Virus record (IMG/VR): IMGVR_UViG_3300025267_002170
Reading direction: 5' to 3' (one strand)
Source: a virus
Lineage: Duplodnaviria > Caudoviricetes
Length of the DNA: 64,000 bases
Positions 7,340 to 13,886 of the stretch are shown here, in pieces (the first letter of the stretch is position 1; every line of letters begins with the position of its first letter). The notes below the pieces were generated by a model. That model saw only the letters and a program-made list of their open reading frames with translations, was not told the DNA's origin and ran no database searches. The position numbers and the translations under genes were made by a program.

Positions 7340-7438
7340 ATGCAGACCATTATCATCACCACCATGCTGGCCATGATTCTCGTTCCGATTATCACGCTGG
7401 GCGTAATGGACGCCATTAGGCATCCGTGGGGCAAGTGA
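7340..7438 (+). CDS. 32-aa membrane peptide (family e)
   Basis: AAGGGG RBS; paralog of the N-terminus of 13635..13886. Confidence 0.7.
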   Translation: MQTIIITTMLAMILVPIITLGVMDAIRHPWGK

Positions 7439-7636
7439 AGAGACGCGCGACGTAACTCCTTATCTGACAAGGGGTTAGGGCGCGGCCGTACTGCGCGAAC
7501 GTAACCCCTTTGATATCAACGACTTACGTCGATTCCAACAAAATTCCAGAATAGGTAGCCATCGGGCTATGCAAGCGTCGATACTAGTCGGTATACTGTA
7601 GCAGTCAAGCAGTCGTACTTACTAGGGAGACGAGAC

Positions 7637-7696
7637 ATGGACATCGTTACCATCGGGCTGGCAGCCGCTCTACTCTACCTCGCTCTCAGCCACTAG
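7637..7696 (+). CDS. 19-aa membrane peptide MDIVTIGLAAALLYLALSH (family a)
   Basis: GGGAG RBS; length and motif conserved in paralogs at 8672, 9702 and 12992. Confidence 0.7.
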   Translation: MDIVTIGLAAALLYLALSH

Positions 7697-7842
7697 GGGG
7701 CTACGCGACGTAACTCCTTATCTGACAAGGGGTTAGGGCGCGGCAGTACTGCTGCGACGTAACCTCTTACATAGCAACGACTTACATCGATTGAACGTAA
7801 CTCCTTATGTGGCAAGGGTTTACGTTCGTCATGTTATTCGGT

Positions 7843-7900
7843 GTAGTCTCATCCCAACTTGCCTGCTGAGCGTCTAAGATAGTCTACAGTCAGCGTCAGC
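7843..7900 (+). repeat. Repeat family B (GTC-rich, TAGTC...GATAGTCTRYAGTCAGC)
   Basis: Copies at about 7843, 8873, 9903, 12170, 15331 and 18821; related tandem TAGTCAGCA at 21592-21624; GGTAGTCAG at 23974, 24058 and 24076. Confidence 0.8.
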
Positions 7901-8093
7901 CGGGGGCCGAGACAAGCTGTTATCTGATAAGGGGTTACGACTACGCACTACCGCGCGAACGTAACTCCTTTGATACCAACGACTTACGTCGATTCCGACA
8001 AAATTCCAGAATAGGTGGCTTGTGGGCTTGTGCCCTGTCGATAAGTCACTATAGTAGAGGACATACAACACGCAACACACACAAGGGTAGCAC

Positions 8094-8309
8094 ATGACAC
8101 GCACACGCCAACTGACTCACACCGAAACAATCGTCGACACCAACAGCAAGGGACAGCAGTTGTGCCGTCCGAAGTACGGCTTCCGGTGGACAATCCAAGA
8201 CAGCGTTGTCGCGATTGGACGCAAGCAAGAGGGTTGGACAACCTGCATCTACATCGACTGCGAACGTCGCGTCCGGGCAATGTGGGATGCCCACTACGCT
8301 GGCAAGTAG
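8094..8309 (+). CDS. Cassette protein family b (TNSKGQxLCRPKYG)
   Basis: Promoter and AAGGG RBS; paralogs at 9124 and 13343. Confidence 0.8.
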   Translation: MTRTRQLTHTETIVDTNSKGQQLCRPKYGFRWTIQDSVVAIGRKQEGWTTCIYIDCERRVRAMWDAHYAGK

Positions 8310-8507
8310 GATTGACGGCGGCGGCGACCTAACTCCTTATCTGACAAGGGGTTACGTCGCGGCCGTACTGCGCGAACGTAACCCCTTACGTACCAACGAC
8401 TTACGTCGATTCCGACAAAATTCCAGAATGGGTGGCCCTTGGGCTTGTGCCCTGTCGATAGTCTTAGTATAGTCAGGGTCATACACAACACTACTGGAAG
8501 GGTAAGC

Positions 8508-8672
8508 ATGGACGACACGGGAGTCAAGGTAGTAGGGCCAAGCAGGGACACCGACTGGCATCATCAGGTGTGGCAGTTCGGTTGGGATGGCTGGGAGTTG
8601 GTTGGGTCGTTCCTGCCAATGGGTTCGGCGGTGGCCTATGCTGAGAAGCTGGTCGATGAGGGGGCACACTGA
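8508..8672 (+). CDS. Cassette protein family c (MDDTGVKVVGPS...)
   Basis: GGAAGGG RBS; paralogs at 9538 and 12828. Confidence 0.8.
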   Translation: MDDTGVKVVGPSRDTDWHHQVWQFGWDGWELVGSFLPMGSAVAYAEKLVDEGAH

Positions 8673-8731
8673 TGGACGTACTCACTTGCGTAACGGCGGC
8701 GGCGTTGCTATGGGTCGCTCTCTCTCACTGA
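8672..8731 (+). CDS. 19-aa membrane peptide MDVLTCVTAAALLWVALSH (family a)
   Basis: TGATG coupling to the family c gene. Confidence 0.7.
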   Translation: MDVLTCVTAAALLWVALSH

Positions 8732-9123
8732 GAATCGACCTAACTCCTTATCTGACAAGGGGTTACGGCAGCGCAGTACTGCTGCGACGTAACCTCTTTG
8801 ATACCAATGACTTACATCAATTGAACGTAACTCCTTACGTAGCAAGGGTTTACGTTCGTCCTATTATCCGGCGTAGTCTCATCCTAACTTACCTGCTGGC
8901 CGTCTAAGATAGTCTACAGTCAGCGTCAGCCGGGGGCCGAGACAAGCTGTTATCTGATAAGGGGTTACGACTACGCACTACCGCGCGAACGTAACTCCTT
9001 TGATACCAACGACTTACGTCGATTCCGACAAAATTCCAGAATAGGTGGCTTGTGGGCTTGTGCCCTGTCGATAAGTCACTATAGTAGAGGACATACAACA
9101 CGCAACACACACAAGGGTAGCAC

Positions 9124-9339
9124 ATGACACGCACACGCCAACTGACTCACACCGAAACAATCGTCGACACCAACAGCAAGGGACAGCAGTTGTGCCGTCC
9201 GAAGTACGGCTTCCGGTGGACAATCCAAGACAGCGTTGTCGCGATTGGACGCAAGCAAGAGGGTTGGACAACCTGCATCTACATCGACTGCGAACGTCGC
9301 GTCCGGGCAATGTGGGATGCCCACTACGCTGGCAAGTAG
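9124..9339 (+). CDS. Family b, duplicate copy
   Basis: Identical to 8094..8309. Confidence 0.8.
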   Translation: MTRTRQLTHTETIVDTNSKGQQLCRPKYGFRWTIQDSVVAIGRKQEGWTTCIYIDCERRVRAMWDAHYAGK

Positions 9340-9537
9340 GATTGACGGCGGCGGCGACCTAACTCCTTATCTGACAAGGGGTTACGTCGCGGCCGTACTG
9401 CGCGAACGTAACCCCTTACGTACCAACGACTTACGTCGATTCCGACAAAATTCCAGAATGGGTGGCCCTTGGGCTTGTGCCCTGTCGATAGTCTTAGTAT
9501 AGTCAGGGTCATACACAACACTACTGGAAGGGTAAGC

Positions 9538-11963: not shown

Positions 11964-12056
11964 ATGCACGAAATGTGGTTGACTGACTTGGTGGTTTCAA
12001 TGTTCGTCGGGCTGGTCATTAGCGGCTGGGTGTACGACAAGCTCTACGAGAATTAA
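11964..12056 (+). CDS. 30-aa membrane peptide
   Basis: GGAAGGG RBS; MHEMWLTDLVVSMFVGLVISGWVYDKLYEN. Confidence 0.6.
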   Translation: MHEMWLTDLVVSMFVGLVISGWVYDKLYEN

Positions 12057-12325
12057 CGTAAACCCTTACGTAGCAAGACGTTACGTCGCGGCAGTACCGC
12101 GCGAACGTAACCCCTTACGTAGCAACGACTTACGTCGACTATAAGATGGGGGTGGCATGGGTGTATCACGTAGTCTAGCCCGCTAGGCGTCTAAGATAGT
12201 CTACAGTCAGCGTCAGCCGTGGGCCGGGTAAATGTGGAAATAACTTGAAGATGTGGGTTGACATGTGTCGATATATCACTATAATAGGGGCATACAACAC
12301 GGGACACAAGTAGAAGGGGCAGACA

Positions 12326-12598
12326 ATGTTGAGCAGAAAAGTGTACGAGGCACAGGCAGCAATCATCAAGAAGCACGTCGCTACGGCGGGACGGGACTTC
12401 TGCTACGAGTTGGCAATTGACCTTGCCGACTACTTCGCAAGCGACAACCCGCGATTCGACCGGGGGCGGTTCTTCAAGGCGTGCGGAATTGACGGTTACC
12501 ACCTGCGACCGTTGCCGGTGGAGTACGTTGACGCGGATTGGAATTCTGAAATGGGGCGTGGCCCGGAACCGATTGGGGCAGACCTCGAACAGCCGTGA
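12326..12598 (+). CDS. Hypothetical phage protein (DNPRFDRxRFxxAC motif)
   Basis: Promoter at 12258, GAAGGGG RBS. Confidence 0.8.
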   Translation: MLSRKVYEAQAAIIKKHVATAGRDFCYELAIDLADYFASDNPRFDRGRFFKACGIDGYHLRPLPVEYVDADWNSEMGRGPEPIGADLEQP

Positions 12599-12827
12599 CA
12601 TTTCCTTTTGTGCGGCGGCGGGTGTAAGCACCCCGACCACTGGGGACGACCCGCCGCCTTACCTAACTCCTTACGTGACAAGGGGTTAGGGCGGCGCAGT
12701 CCGGCGCGAACGTAACTCCTTTAATACCAACGACTTATGACTATTCTGAGAAAATGTCAAGATAGTAGTTGACTTATGACGATATAGGGGGTATAACAGT
12801 AATATACAACAACGGAAGGGCAAGAGC

Positions 12828-12992
12828 ATGGATGATACGGGCGTCAAGGTAGTAGGGCCGAGTAAGGACACCGACTGGGAACACCAAGTGTGGCAGTTCG
12901 GTAGCGAGGGGTGGGAGTTGGTCGGCTCCTATATGCCGATGGGTTCGGCAATTGCTCAAGCTGAGAAGTTGATTGACGAGGGGGCACACTAG
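12828..12992 (+). CDS. Family c paralog
   Basis: MDDTGVKVVGPSKDTDWEHQVWQFG...DEGAH. Confidence 0.8.
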   Translation: MDDTGVKVVGPSKDTDWEHQVWQFGSEGWELVGSYMPMGSAIAQAEKLIDEGAH

Positions 12993-13051
12993 TGGATGCA
13001 TTGGTTTGCATTACGGCGGCGACGTTGCTTTACATTGCCATATCTCACTGA
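12992..13051 (+). CDS. Family a paralog MDALVCITAATLLYIAISH
   Basis: GTG start overlapping the family c stop. Confidence 0.65.
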   Translation: MDALVCITAATLLYIAISH

Positions 13052-13066
13052 CAGGGGAATCGCACA

Positions 13067-13150
13067 ATGACTTTCATCTACATCGTCCTCGGGCTTGTCT
13101 GGTCGCTGCTGCTGCTGGACATCTTCCTTCCCGGCTGGGACGGCAAGTAA
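13067..13150 (+). CDS. Family d paralog MTFIYIVLGLVWSLLLLDIFLPGWDGK
   Basis: AGGGG RBS. Confidence 0.7.
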   Translation: MTFIYIVLGLVWSLLLLDIFLPGWDGK

Positions 13151-13342
13151 CCGACGTAACTCCTTAACTGACAAGGGGTTAGGGCGGCGCGGTACGGCGC
13201 GAACGTAACCCCTTACGTAGCAACGACTTACAACTACTTTGGGGAAAATTCTGGAATTACTGGCGATTGGGGTATACTTTGGACGATAAGGTATGTATAA
13301 TGGGAGACATACAACACACAACACACACAAGGGCAAAACACA

Positions 13343-13570
13343 ATGACCATCACTATCACACCCAAGGCTGACCGCAACCGAGAACTGAACCACGCCGAGA
13401 TTATCGTCGAAACCAACAGCAAGGGGCAATGCCTGTGCCGACCGAAGTACGGTTGCAACTGGACAATCGTGACACCAACACGCAACCAACCCGGCATGAA
13501 CTGCGTTCACTGGATTGGTGAGGAGTTGTCAATCAAGGCACAGTGGAACGCAAACTACGCCGACAAGTAG
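13343..13570 (+). CDS. Family b paralog
   Basis: ETNSKGQCLCRPKYG. Confidence 0.8.
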   Translation: MTITITPKADRNRELNHAEIIVETNSKGQCLCRPKYGCNWTIVTPTRNQPGMNCVHWIGEELSIKAQWNANYADK

Positions 13571-13634
13571 GGTTGACGGCGGTTGGTGTATCAGGTAGAA
13601 TACACACTCACAACACACACAAGGGCACAACACA

Positions 13635-13886
13635 ATGACAACCACCACCATCATCATCGCCGCCATGCTCACCGCCATCATCCTGCCGATTATCATCCTC
13701 GGCATTCAAGATGCCCGGCGACACTCGTGGCGACCAAAGAACAGACACAAGCGGTTCGGCGTTGACAGTGATTACATGAAAGCGGTGAAGGGCGGAAGCA
13801 AGACACTGGCAGAGTATCACCGCAAGAGACTTGCGGAAGGGCAAGAGCGTTTGAAGTGGCGGGTGACGGTTGTTGACAACGACTAA
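13635..13886 (+). CDS. Family e membrane protein, long form
   Basis: Own promoter at 13573, AAGGG RBS. Confidence 0.75.
   Translation: MTTTTIIIAAMLTAIILPIIILGIQDARRHSWRPKNRHKRFGVDSDYMKAVKGGSKTLAEYHRKRLAEGQERLKWRVTVVDND

What the first reader, a model, noticed from the sequence alone, without database searches (positions are those of the whole stretch)
7340..13886. Five paralog families recur in shuffled order and with swapped promoters
Seen: family a (...ALSH: 7637, 8672, 9702, 12992), b (TNSKGQxLCRPKYG: 8094, 9124, 13343), c (MDDTGVKVVGPS: 8508, 9538, 12828), d (LLLDIFxPGWD: 10152, 13067) and e (7340, 13635). The order is e,a,b,c-a,b,c-a,d in the first block and c-a-d,b,e in the second. Family a stands alone at 7637 but is coupled to c elsewhere. 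Family d has its own repeat and promoter at 10152 but none at 13067. The linker variant CTTACAACTACTTTGG...CTGGAATTACT precedes d at about 10043 and b at about 13227. Inference: these are direct footprints of repeated cassette rearrangement over time, not of one block duplication.
Basis: seen in the sequence. Interest (0 to 1): 0.8.

Follow-up and report, generated by a model that had tools for sequence, protein, structure and literature searches.

The report
Shuffled promoter-bearing gene cassettes in phage
In an uncultured large phage, five families of tiny genes recur in a different order because the repeated, promoter-carrying spacers between the genes serve as crossover points; this is a variant of the cassette shuffling already known from T4-type phages.

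Summary
All five families sit at the stated coordinates, are real paralogs (47-83% amino-acid identity) and are under purifying selection (dN/dS 0.10-0.43). They lie in a 17-kb, GC-rich array of about 26 units. Each unit is an 88-nt double-dyad repeat (R), an A-rich linker, a sigma-70-type promoter with leader, and small ORFan genes.

- The repetition inside block 1 (b, c-a, b, c-a) is one recent 1030-bp tandem duplication. Its crossover maps to a 45-nt identical segment.
- Synonymous divergence between the blocks is similar for all five families (dS 0.7-1.5), so one old duplication could have made the copies.
- Later rearrangement is still needed. The order is reversed (e|b|c-a-d versus c-a-d|b|e), a full spacer sits between a and d in block 1 only, and the spacer before b' is a mosaic.

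The strongest evidence is new. Near-identical contigs from other metagenomes carry at least six other cassette combinations in window 7.9-10.25 kb. Their breakpoints are scattered over the spacers, which fits homologous recombination rather than a fixed site.

The closest known system is the PeSL cassettes of T4-type phages. The scan has already reported PeSL-like arrays on other DNA.

The parts
7340..7438 (+). e, a 32-aa hydrophobic peptide, co-transcribed behind a 19-aa ORF at 7237-7296
   Evidence: 53% identical to the first 32 aa of e'; homologs in L121 and L124
7444..7610 (+). composite spacer (R double dyad, A-rich linker, promoter, leader) in front of a1
   Evidence: nhmmer profile hit, E 6.7e-47; alignment
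7637..7696 (+). a1, a stand-alone 19-aa member of family a and its oldest paralog
   Evidence: dS against a2 is 2.6
7701..8074 (+). long spacer: R, third dyad h (7795-7826), D7 segment (7858-7909), degenerate R' (7902-7990) and promoter in front of b
   Evidence: (families D5, D7)
8094..8309 (+). b, 71 aa
   Evidence: exact copies on 13 other contigs; homologs P0001-P0010
8323..8492 (+). composite spacer in front of c-a2
8508..8731 (+). c (54 aa) translationally coupled to a2 (19 aa) through a TGATG overlap
   Evidence: homologs P0011-P0021
8736..9765 (+). second copy of the 1030-bp tandem unit (long spacer, b, spacer, c-a2). Its left 165 nt match copy 3 and the rest is identical to copy 1
   Evidence: The 20 mismatches to copy 1 all lie at 7710-7870. 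There are 2 mismatches to copy 3 before 8946. The crossover window is 8901-8945
9760..10134 (+). long spacer (R, h, D7, R', promoter) with the distinctive linker variant (10043-10077), in front of d
10152..10244 (+). d, a 30-aa hydrophobic peptide
   Evidence: homolog in L122
10246..12814 (+). five further single-gene cassettes (ORFs at 10425, 11054, 11531, 11964, 12326), each with its own spacer. Invariant in all population contigs
12828..13150 (+). c'-a'-d' under one promoter; c'/a' overlap is TAGTG; a' and d' are 15 nt apart with no spacer element
13148..13321 (+). mosaic composite spacer in front of b'. R resembles the copy at 14351, the linker (13227-13261) resembles the one before d, and the -10/leader resembles that of b
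13343..13570 (+). b', 75 aa
13573..13601 (+). minimal promoter-like site (TTGACG, 17 nt, TAGAAT) without R, followed by a b-type leader, in front of e'
13635..13886 (+). e', 83 aa: an e-like N-terminus plus a 51-aa charged tail

Best explanation
Window 7.0-23.9 kb is a hyperplastic early-gene region of an uncultured large phage.

About 26 transcription units stand head to tail. Each is preceded by one conserved composite spacer of about 175 nt. The spacer holds an 88-nt double dyad (two 9-7-9 inverted repeats, TAAnnCCTT-N7-AAGGnnTTA, 49 nt apart around a GC-rich core), an A-rich linker, a sigma-70-type promoter and a CA-rich leader with AAGGG.

These spacers are direct repeats that share exact stretches of 20-46 nt. 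General homologous recombination can therefore pair them out of register, within one genome or between co-infecting relatives. The products are tandem duplications, deletions, replacements and reorderings of whole cassettes.

The five paralog families are the record of this process:
- An old duplication or acquisition of a c-a-d/b/e set (dS about 1).
- Later reordering and spacer gain or loss.
- One very recent unequal crossover that doubled b|c-a.
- Divergence of the copies under purifying selection.

Shown: the anatomy, the paralogy, the crossover interval, the population haplotypes and their breakpoints. Inferred: that recombination is general rather than site-specific, that the promoters are early host-RNAP promoters, and that R is a protein-binding DNA element.
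For: - The profile of the spacer finds 26 plus-strand copies, all between 7071 and 23858.
- Promoter-like sites number 17 against 6.9 +/- 2.6 in shuffles. The best ones sit inside the spacers.
- Copy 2 of the tandem repeat is a chimera of copy 3 (left) and copy 1 (right). The junction lies in a 45-nt identical block, the second-longest exact match between any two spacers.
- Contigs 98-100% identical to the window, from JGI and ENA assemblies, are invariant over window 10254-14515. Between a1 and the ORF at 10425 they carry e|a1|c-a|d, e|a1|c-a|b'', b|c-a|d, b|c-a|b'', b'''|d or b''' alone.
- Identity breakpoints fall at 7914 (D7/R' edge), inside the R core (L126), at 10254 (left edge of R), at 14515 (end of the leader) and inside the 5' end of b/b''.
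- More distant relatives (GP88 67-87% identical) keep the spacers but order the shared cassettes differently.
- The promoters before b and before c-a2 cluster with each other (92/95 support), not with the promoters of their cargo's paralogs.
- dN/dS is 0.10-0.43.
- PeSL crossovers in RB49/phi1 are likewise scattered over the element (PMC2839356).
Against: - No independent contig confirms the 1030-bp duplication. Short-read contigs break at these repeats, and the assembler could have traversed a strain bubble twice.
- Similar dS in all five families means one duplication could have produced the copies. The number of later events cannot be counted with two copies per family.
- The R and promoter trees are unresolved. 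Spacer incongruence could therefore also come from gene conversion between neighbours rather than from swapping.
- No recombination gene was identified in the window.
- Promoter activity and timing are untested.
- R is not a terminator-like stem-loop, so the likeness to PeSL is functional rather than structural.
Confidence: 0.72

Rival explanations
1. There was one ancient block duplication followed only by deletions. The spacers are ordinary promoters with no role in rearrangement.
For: dS between blocks is similar for c, b, d, e and a2/a' (0.74-1.47). The spacer-plus-c-a unit aligns as one piece with its block-2 copy (73.7% over 407 nt).
Against: - A reversed order with retained orientation needs at least three tandem copies plus four deletions, and each of those would itself be a repeat-mediated event.
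- Population contigs show replacements as well as losses, for example d replaced by b'' or b''' in front of the ORF at 10425.
- The spacer before b' is a mosaic.
- The recent duplication has its junction inside a spacer.
Confidence: 0.1
2. The array is an integron-like system. R is an att-type site that a dedicated site-specific recombinase cuts and rejoins to excise and insert cassettes.
For: R has attC-like geometry: two pairs of inverted boxes around a variable core, one per cassette, all in the same orientation. Two breakpoints coincide with the edges of R (10254 and 7914). The half-dyad motif is found in at least 118 stretches of IMG/VR.
Against: - Breakpoints are scattered: in D7, in the R core, at the end of the leader and inside coding sequence.
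- Each cassette has its own promoter.
- No integrase, resolvase or transposase domain was found in the flanking genes or the larger ORFs that I tested.
- There is no covariation that would preserve a folded att structure.
Confidence: 0.07
3. Block 2 is not an intragenomic duplicate. It is a homologous cassette set imported from a diverged relative by recombination at the spacers, so the copies are xenologs. This uses the same mechanism as the best explanation and differs only in the source of the copies.
For: The b family has at least four diverged alleles (b, b', b'', b''') circulating in near-identical genomes, and b'' is itself a mosaic. All five families have saturated-range dS of about 1, as expected for one imported block.
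Against: No donor lineage carrying c'-a'-d'|b'|e' at a single-copy locus was found. Block 2 is fixed in every contig examined.
Confidence: 0.3
4. Metagenome assembly artefact: strain variants of one locus were strung together in series.
For: The 1030-bp duplication is seen in this contig only. The region holds many near-identical repeats and several strain haplotypes.
Against: Blocks 1 and 2 lie on the same molecule in independent assemblies from different projects and assemblers (L125 from JGI; L126 and L137 and others). The paralogs differ by 17-45% in protein sequence, far beyond strain variation.
Confidence: 0.04

Closest known systems
PeSLs (promoter-early stem-loops) of T4-type phages RB49/phi1, T4/PST and KVP40/nt-1 (Arbiol et al. 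2010, PMC2839356; Comeau et al. 2014, PMC4122927)
   Same: - A composite intergenic element with an A/T-rich stretch, a sigma-70-like -35/-10, a Shine-Dalgarno site and a start codon.
- Repeated in direct orientation between small ORFan genes in a hyperplastic region.
- Indels, replacements and displacements between close relatives map to the elements.
- Crossover points are scattered over the element.
   Different: - The upstream module is not a short terminator-like hairpin. It is an 88-nt double 9-7-9 dyad with fixed 49-nt spacing, no T-run and no base-pair covariation.
- The host phage is not shown to be T4-type. Its best rIIA matches are about 30% identical to Roseobacter phages and a 595-kb uncultured phage.
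- The array is 12 GC points richer than the rest of the genome.
- Mini-circles were not tested.
Integron cassette arrays (intI, attI, attC)
   Same: A head-to-tail array of small single-gene cassettes, each with one imperfectly palindromic element of 60-140 nt. Cassette content varies between close relatives.
   Different: No integrase was found in the genes tested. Every cassette has its own promoter. The element lies upstream of the promoter rather than at a promoterless 3' end. Breakpoints are not fixed, and there is no structural covariation.
PeSL-like cassette arrays reported earlier in this scan on other DNA (for example e1-5738718 in a cyanophage, and e1-240270 and e1-257657 in phi92-like coliphages)
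   Same: Repeated promoter-bearing joints between mini-genes, with gain, loss and swapping at the joints in relatives.
   Different: Their joint sequences and architectures are different and unrelated to this one. Here the joint carries the R double dyad, and the evidence comes from within-species haplotypes. I did not re-examine those loci.

Membership tests
PeSL (T4-type phages) | sigma-70-like promoter (-35, 16-18 nt, -10) inside the element | tested here: met
   One search shows aligned TTGACx/TTGTGx and TATAAT-like boxes in most copies. One search finds 17 sites against 6.9 expected, the best of them inside the spacers.
PeSL (T4-type phages) | stem-loop (terminator-like) directly upstream of the promoter | tested here: not met
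   R is a double dyad without a T-run. Terminator-like sites number 6 against 6.6 expected, and none is in R. Observed pairing equals that expected from column composition in all four arm pairings. RNAalifold gives 0 consensus pairs on 110 copies.
PeSL (T4-type phages) | A/T-rich stretch upstream of -35, and Shine-Dalgarno plus start codon at the 3' end | tested here: met
   An AAAATTCCAGAAT-type linker and a leader ending in AAGGG 6-10 nt before the ATG.
PeSL (T4-type phages) | clustered in a hyperplastic region between small genes of unknown function | tested here: met
   All 26 copies lie at 7071-23858. Of 10 cargo ORFs tested, none matches Pfam and only one has a weak PHROGs match of unknown function.
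PeSL (T4-type phages) | indels and replacements between close relatives map to the elements | tested here: met
   seven haplotypes, with breakpoints at 7914, in the R core, at 10254 and at 14515.
PeSL (T4-type phages) | excised mini-circles with a chimeric element | not testable with these tools
   This needs inverse PCR or long reads from an infected culture or from virions.
PeSL (T4-type phages) | host genome is a T4-type myovirus | tested here: inconclusive
   rIIA and rIIB are present. The best tblastn matches are about 30% identical to Roseobacter phages DSS3P8 and MD18 and to a 595-kb uncultured phage. No T4 core structural genes lie in the window.
Integron | tyrosine recombinase (IntI) next to the array | tested here: not met
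   The left-flank genes are a sigma-like factor, a 299-aa protein with only a weak HTH_38 match, and a MotA/ExbB-like protein. No recombinase family was found in the ORFs tested. The rest of the genome was not available.
Integron | promoterless cassettes read from one common promoter | tested here: not met
   Nearly every cassette has its own -35/-10.
Integron | recombination at one fixed position of a structurally conserved attC | tested here: not met
   Breakpoints are scattered and there is no covariation.

The most novel reading that the evidence does not exclude
The R double dyad (two 9-7-9 inverted repeats exactly 49 nt apart, sequence-conserved without RNA covariation, present in well over 100 metagenomic phage contigs) may be the docking site of a dedicated DNA-binding protein. 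That protein would both control the early promoters and stimulate or target crossovers at cassette joints. This would be a protein-guided cassette-exchange system shared by a large group of uncultured phages, rather than passive homology.
Probability: 0.1. Interest if true: 0.75.

Novelty: new variant of a known kind. Interest (0 to 1): 0.45.

Why it matters
This locus shows repeat-mediated cassette turnover caught in progress within one natural phage population. It contains a fresh tandem duplication whose crossover interval is mapped to 45 nt, and at least six alternative cassette sets sit at the same joints in otherwise 98-100% identical genomes. It extends PeSL-type modular shuffling beyond the cultured T4-type phages in which it was described, to a widespread uncultured phage group with a different and more elaborate joint. 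It also gives concrete junctions for testing how phages renew their early accessory genes. This is not a new principle, and the scan has already met several PeSL-like arrays elsewhere.

Tried and rejected
- Megablast of 7000-15500 and blastn of one spacer against 50,697 phage records gave no match. No cultured relative carries the element.
- Rfam and ARAGORN found nothing in 7-24 kb.
- I tested whether R is a folded RNA or a terminator and rejected it.
Both are unresolved stars, with 0 of 18 and 0 of 15 inner branches well supported, so tree incongruence cannot be tested formally. I used identity matrices and local best-match mapping instead.
- The 19-aa ORF at 7237 was considered as a fifth member of family a and rejected (11-26% identity).
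- L140 at first looked like independent support for c|b|c. On mapping it is e|a1|b|c-a, so it does not confirm the duplication.
- A MITE-like mobile element was considered for R. I saw no target-site duplications by eye when reading the flanks; this was not searched systematically. The orientation is uniform and the phase with the promoter is fixed.
- A genome-contig scan for the half dyad gave 20 hits. Most are isolated 27-nt matches that lack the full element, so it gave no host clue.
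Full report
WHAT THE WINDOW IS

No whole genome is held for this window. The window encodes rIIA (33976-36120) and rIIB, a ribonucleotide reductase, two sigma-like factors, a tmRNA and two tRNAs. It has no near match among 50,697 phage records. Its best protein matches are about 30% (rIIA, to Roseobacter phages) and 54% (an aldehyde dehydrogenase, to a 595-kb uncultured phage). It is therefore a large uncultured phage. 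Earlier notes of the scan call it marine; I did not check sample metadata. Window 8-24 kb has 49-55% GC against about 40% elsewhere.

THE OBSERVATION

| Family | Length | Positions | Amino-acid identity | Nucleotide identity |
|---|---|---|---|---|
| c | 54 aa | 8508, 9538, 12828 | 83% | 81% |
| b | 71 and 75 aa | 8094, 9124, 13343 | 55% | 63% |
| d | 30 and 27 aa | 10152, 13067 | 63% | 67% |
| e | 32 and 83 aa | 7340, 13635 | 53% over the shared 32 aa | 60% |
| a | 19 aa | 7637, 8672, 9702, 12992 | 47-63% | 44-68% |

- c and a are coupled by one-base overlaps, TGATG and TAGTG.
- dN/dS is 0.10 for c, 0.31 for b, 0.36 for d, 0.27 for e and 0.14-0.43 for a. These tiny ORFs are therefore real genes.
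- d and e have homologs in related viral contigs. b and c have homologs in ENA and JGI metagenomes.
- None of the ten cargo ORFs tested matches Pfam, and only one has a weak PHROGs match of unknown function.

The families lie in an array of about 26 plus-strand copies of one composite spacer. All copies fall between 7071 and 23858. The spacer consists of:
- an 88-nt element R, made of four 9-mers of the type TAAnnCCTT / AAGGnnTTA arranged as two 9-7-9 dyads 49 nt apart around a GC-rich core;
- an A-rich linker (AAAATTCCAGAAT type);
- a -35/-10 pair of sigma-70 type with a conserved TGTCGATA in the spacer between them;
- a CA-rich leader ending in AAGGG before the start codon.

Promoter-like sites are enriched, 17 against 6.9 +/- 2.6 in shuffles, and the best ones sit inside the spacers. 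Terminator-like sites are not enriched, 6 against 6.6.

After each a gene in block 1, and once at 12049, a longer spacer occurs: R, a third dyad, a 45-52-nt segment I call D7, a degenerate R', and then the promoter.

A profile of the whole spacer hits about 107 of the 124 loci then held. On 110 copies from many contigs the arms show no covariation: observed pairing equals that expected from column composition in all four possible pairings. RNAalifold predicts no consensus pairs. R is therefore a sequence-conserved element, most likely a protein-binding DNA site. It is not a conserved RNA helix or a terminator.

BLOCK 1 CONTAINS ONE RECENT TANDEM DUPLICATION

Positions 7706-8735 and 8736-9765 differ at 20 positions, all within 7710-7870. 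The remaining 865 nt are identical. The left part of copy 2 differs from copy 3 (9766 onward) at only two positions before 8946 and then diverges.

Copy 2 is thus a chimera: its left part matches the spacer that follows a2 and precedes d, and its right part matches the spacer that follows a1 and precedes b. The crossover lies in 8901-8945, a 45-nt block identical in all three copies. That block is the second-longest exact match between any two spacers, where the median is 20.5 nt and the maximum 46 nt.

This is the signature of one unequal homologous crossover. The two left-part differences match an allele seen in other contigs, X in L125 and L139 against Y in L135, L137 and L126. The partners may therefore have been different co-infecting genomes.

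No independent contig spans the duplication. I put about 0.2 on its being an assembly loop.

BLOCK 1 VERSUS BLOCK 2

Synonymous divergence is similar for all families: c 1.01, b 1.26, d 0.92, e 1.47, a2/a' 0.74. Only a1 is older, with dS of 2.6 against a2 and saturated against a'. One old duplication, or one import of a diverged homologous set, is enough to explain the copies.

It does not explain the arrangement.
- Leaving out a1 and the fresh duplicate, the order e|b|c-a-d has become c-a-d|b|e with orientation kept.
- A roughly 390-nt spacer lies between a and d in block 1 only.
- e' has lost R and keeps a minimal TTGACG-17-TAGAAT site followed by a b-type leader.
- d together with its downstream spacer is homologous in both blocks (72% over 286 nt), but it is followed by different cargo: the ORF at 10425 in block 1 and b' in block 2.
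- The spacer before b' is a mosaic. Its R is closest to the copy at 14351 (93%), its linker to the one before d (88%), and its -10/leader to that of b (85-88%).
- c and c' are 81% identical in nucleotides, but their linker/promoters are only 54% identical. The promoters before b and before c-a2, which are neighbours, are 80% identical and form one of the only two supported clades.

The trees are otherwise unresolved. The formal incongruence test is underpowered, and gene conversion between neighbours remains possible.

POPULATION EVIDENCE (NEW)

Exact-sequence look-ups of c', of a 98% c variant and of b returned 19 contigs from JGI and ENA assemblies that are 98-100% identical to the window where they overlap. 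From 10254 to 14515, block 2 included, all of them are collinear. Between a1 and the ORF at 10425 they differ:

| Contigs | Arrangement |
|---|---|
| window | e, a1, b, c-a, b, c-a, d |
| L140, with L137, L138 and L141 | e, a1, b, c-a and b, c-a, d (consistent with the unduplicated form) |
| L135 | e, a1, c-a, d |
| L125 and L131 | e, a1, c-a, b'' |
| L139 | b, c-a, b'' |
| L126 | b''', d |
| L130 | b''' directly before the ORF at 10425 |

Downstream, L126 and L128 carry about 320 extra nt at 14515. L132 diverges at 14515 and L129 at 14955.

Identity breakpoints lie at 7914 (edge of D7 and R'), inside the R core (L126), at 10254 (left edge of R), at 14515 (end of the leader) and within the first 100 nt or so of b/b''. 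Breakpoints scattered over the shared sequence argue for homologous recombination and against one fixed site. PeSL crossovers are scattered in the same way (PMC2839356).

More distant relatives (GP88 67-87% identical) keep the spacers but order the shared cassettes differently. One of them, L122, holds three or four copies of the family of the ORF at 11531.

COMPARISON WITH WHAT IS KNOWN

The closest system is the PeSL of T4-type phages (PMC2839356, PMC4122927). Shared features are promoter-bearing composite joints between ORFans in hyperplastic regions, with indels and replacements between close relatives at the joints.

Two defining features are not met or not shown. The upstream module is not a terminator-like hairpin, and the phage is not demonstrably T4-type. 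I therefore file this as a PeSL-like variant, not as a member.

An integron-like reading fails on four counts. No integrase was found in the flanks or in the ORFs tested. Cassettes have their own promoters. Breakpoints are not fixed. There is no structural covariation.

The scan has already reported PeSL-like arrays on other DNA.

VERDICT

The finding is a new variant of a known kind, of moderate interest.

Noticed in passing
window 7000-24000 versus the rest: The cassette array is 49-55% GC, while the flanking phage genome is about 40%. The cause is unknown: foreign origin, biased conversion or a different constraint.
   Followed up: no
window 7858-7909, 8888-8939, 9918-9969, 12175-12226, 15336-15387: The D7 segment (about 50 nt, with repeated AGTCAGC-like words) is 90-100% identical in four copies although its flanks differ. 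It always lies between an R and the next promoter. Its function is unknown. It holds the crossover of the tandem duplication.
   Followed up: partly
L144, L149, L153, L162 (Phycisphaerae/Sedimentisphaerales MAGs), around the motif match: The 27-nt half dyad CGTAACYCCTT-N7-AACGACTTA occurs singly in diverse bacterial genomes: 20 stretches, against about 2 by my own uniform-base estimate. In four Phycisphaerae MAGs it sits about 30 nt upstream of a TGGCACG-N4-TTCGC sigma-54-like site in a conserved context. It may be a binding site for a widespread host factor. The last arm plus its loop resembles the IHF consensus as I recall it from memory.
   Followed up: partly
L125:3207-3295: In this haplotype the joint between a1's long spacer and the spacer of c carries two tandem copies of a roughly 42-nt unit that is absent from the window.
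   Followed up: no
Two contigs have about 320 extra nt at the transcript start. Another replaces the downstream cassettes, including a Phage_L5_gp82-like gene.
   Followed up: no
L125:4096-4341, L131:204-449, L139:1337-1582: Allele b'' is itself a mosaic. Its promoter and first 100 nt or so are about 94% identical to b. The rest is diverged (59% amino-acid identity to b').
   Followed up: partly
window 13635-13886: e' carries a 51-aa charged C-terminal tail that is absent from e (32 aa). The family therefore varies by extension as well as by substitution.
   Followed up: no
window 6013-6543 (-) and 32893-33486 (+): There are two separate sigma-factor-like genes. One is divergently placed right at the left edge of the array.
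   Followed up: no
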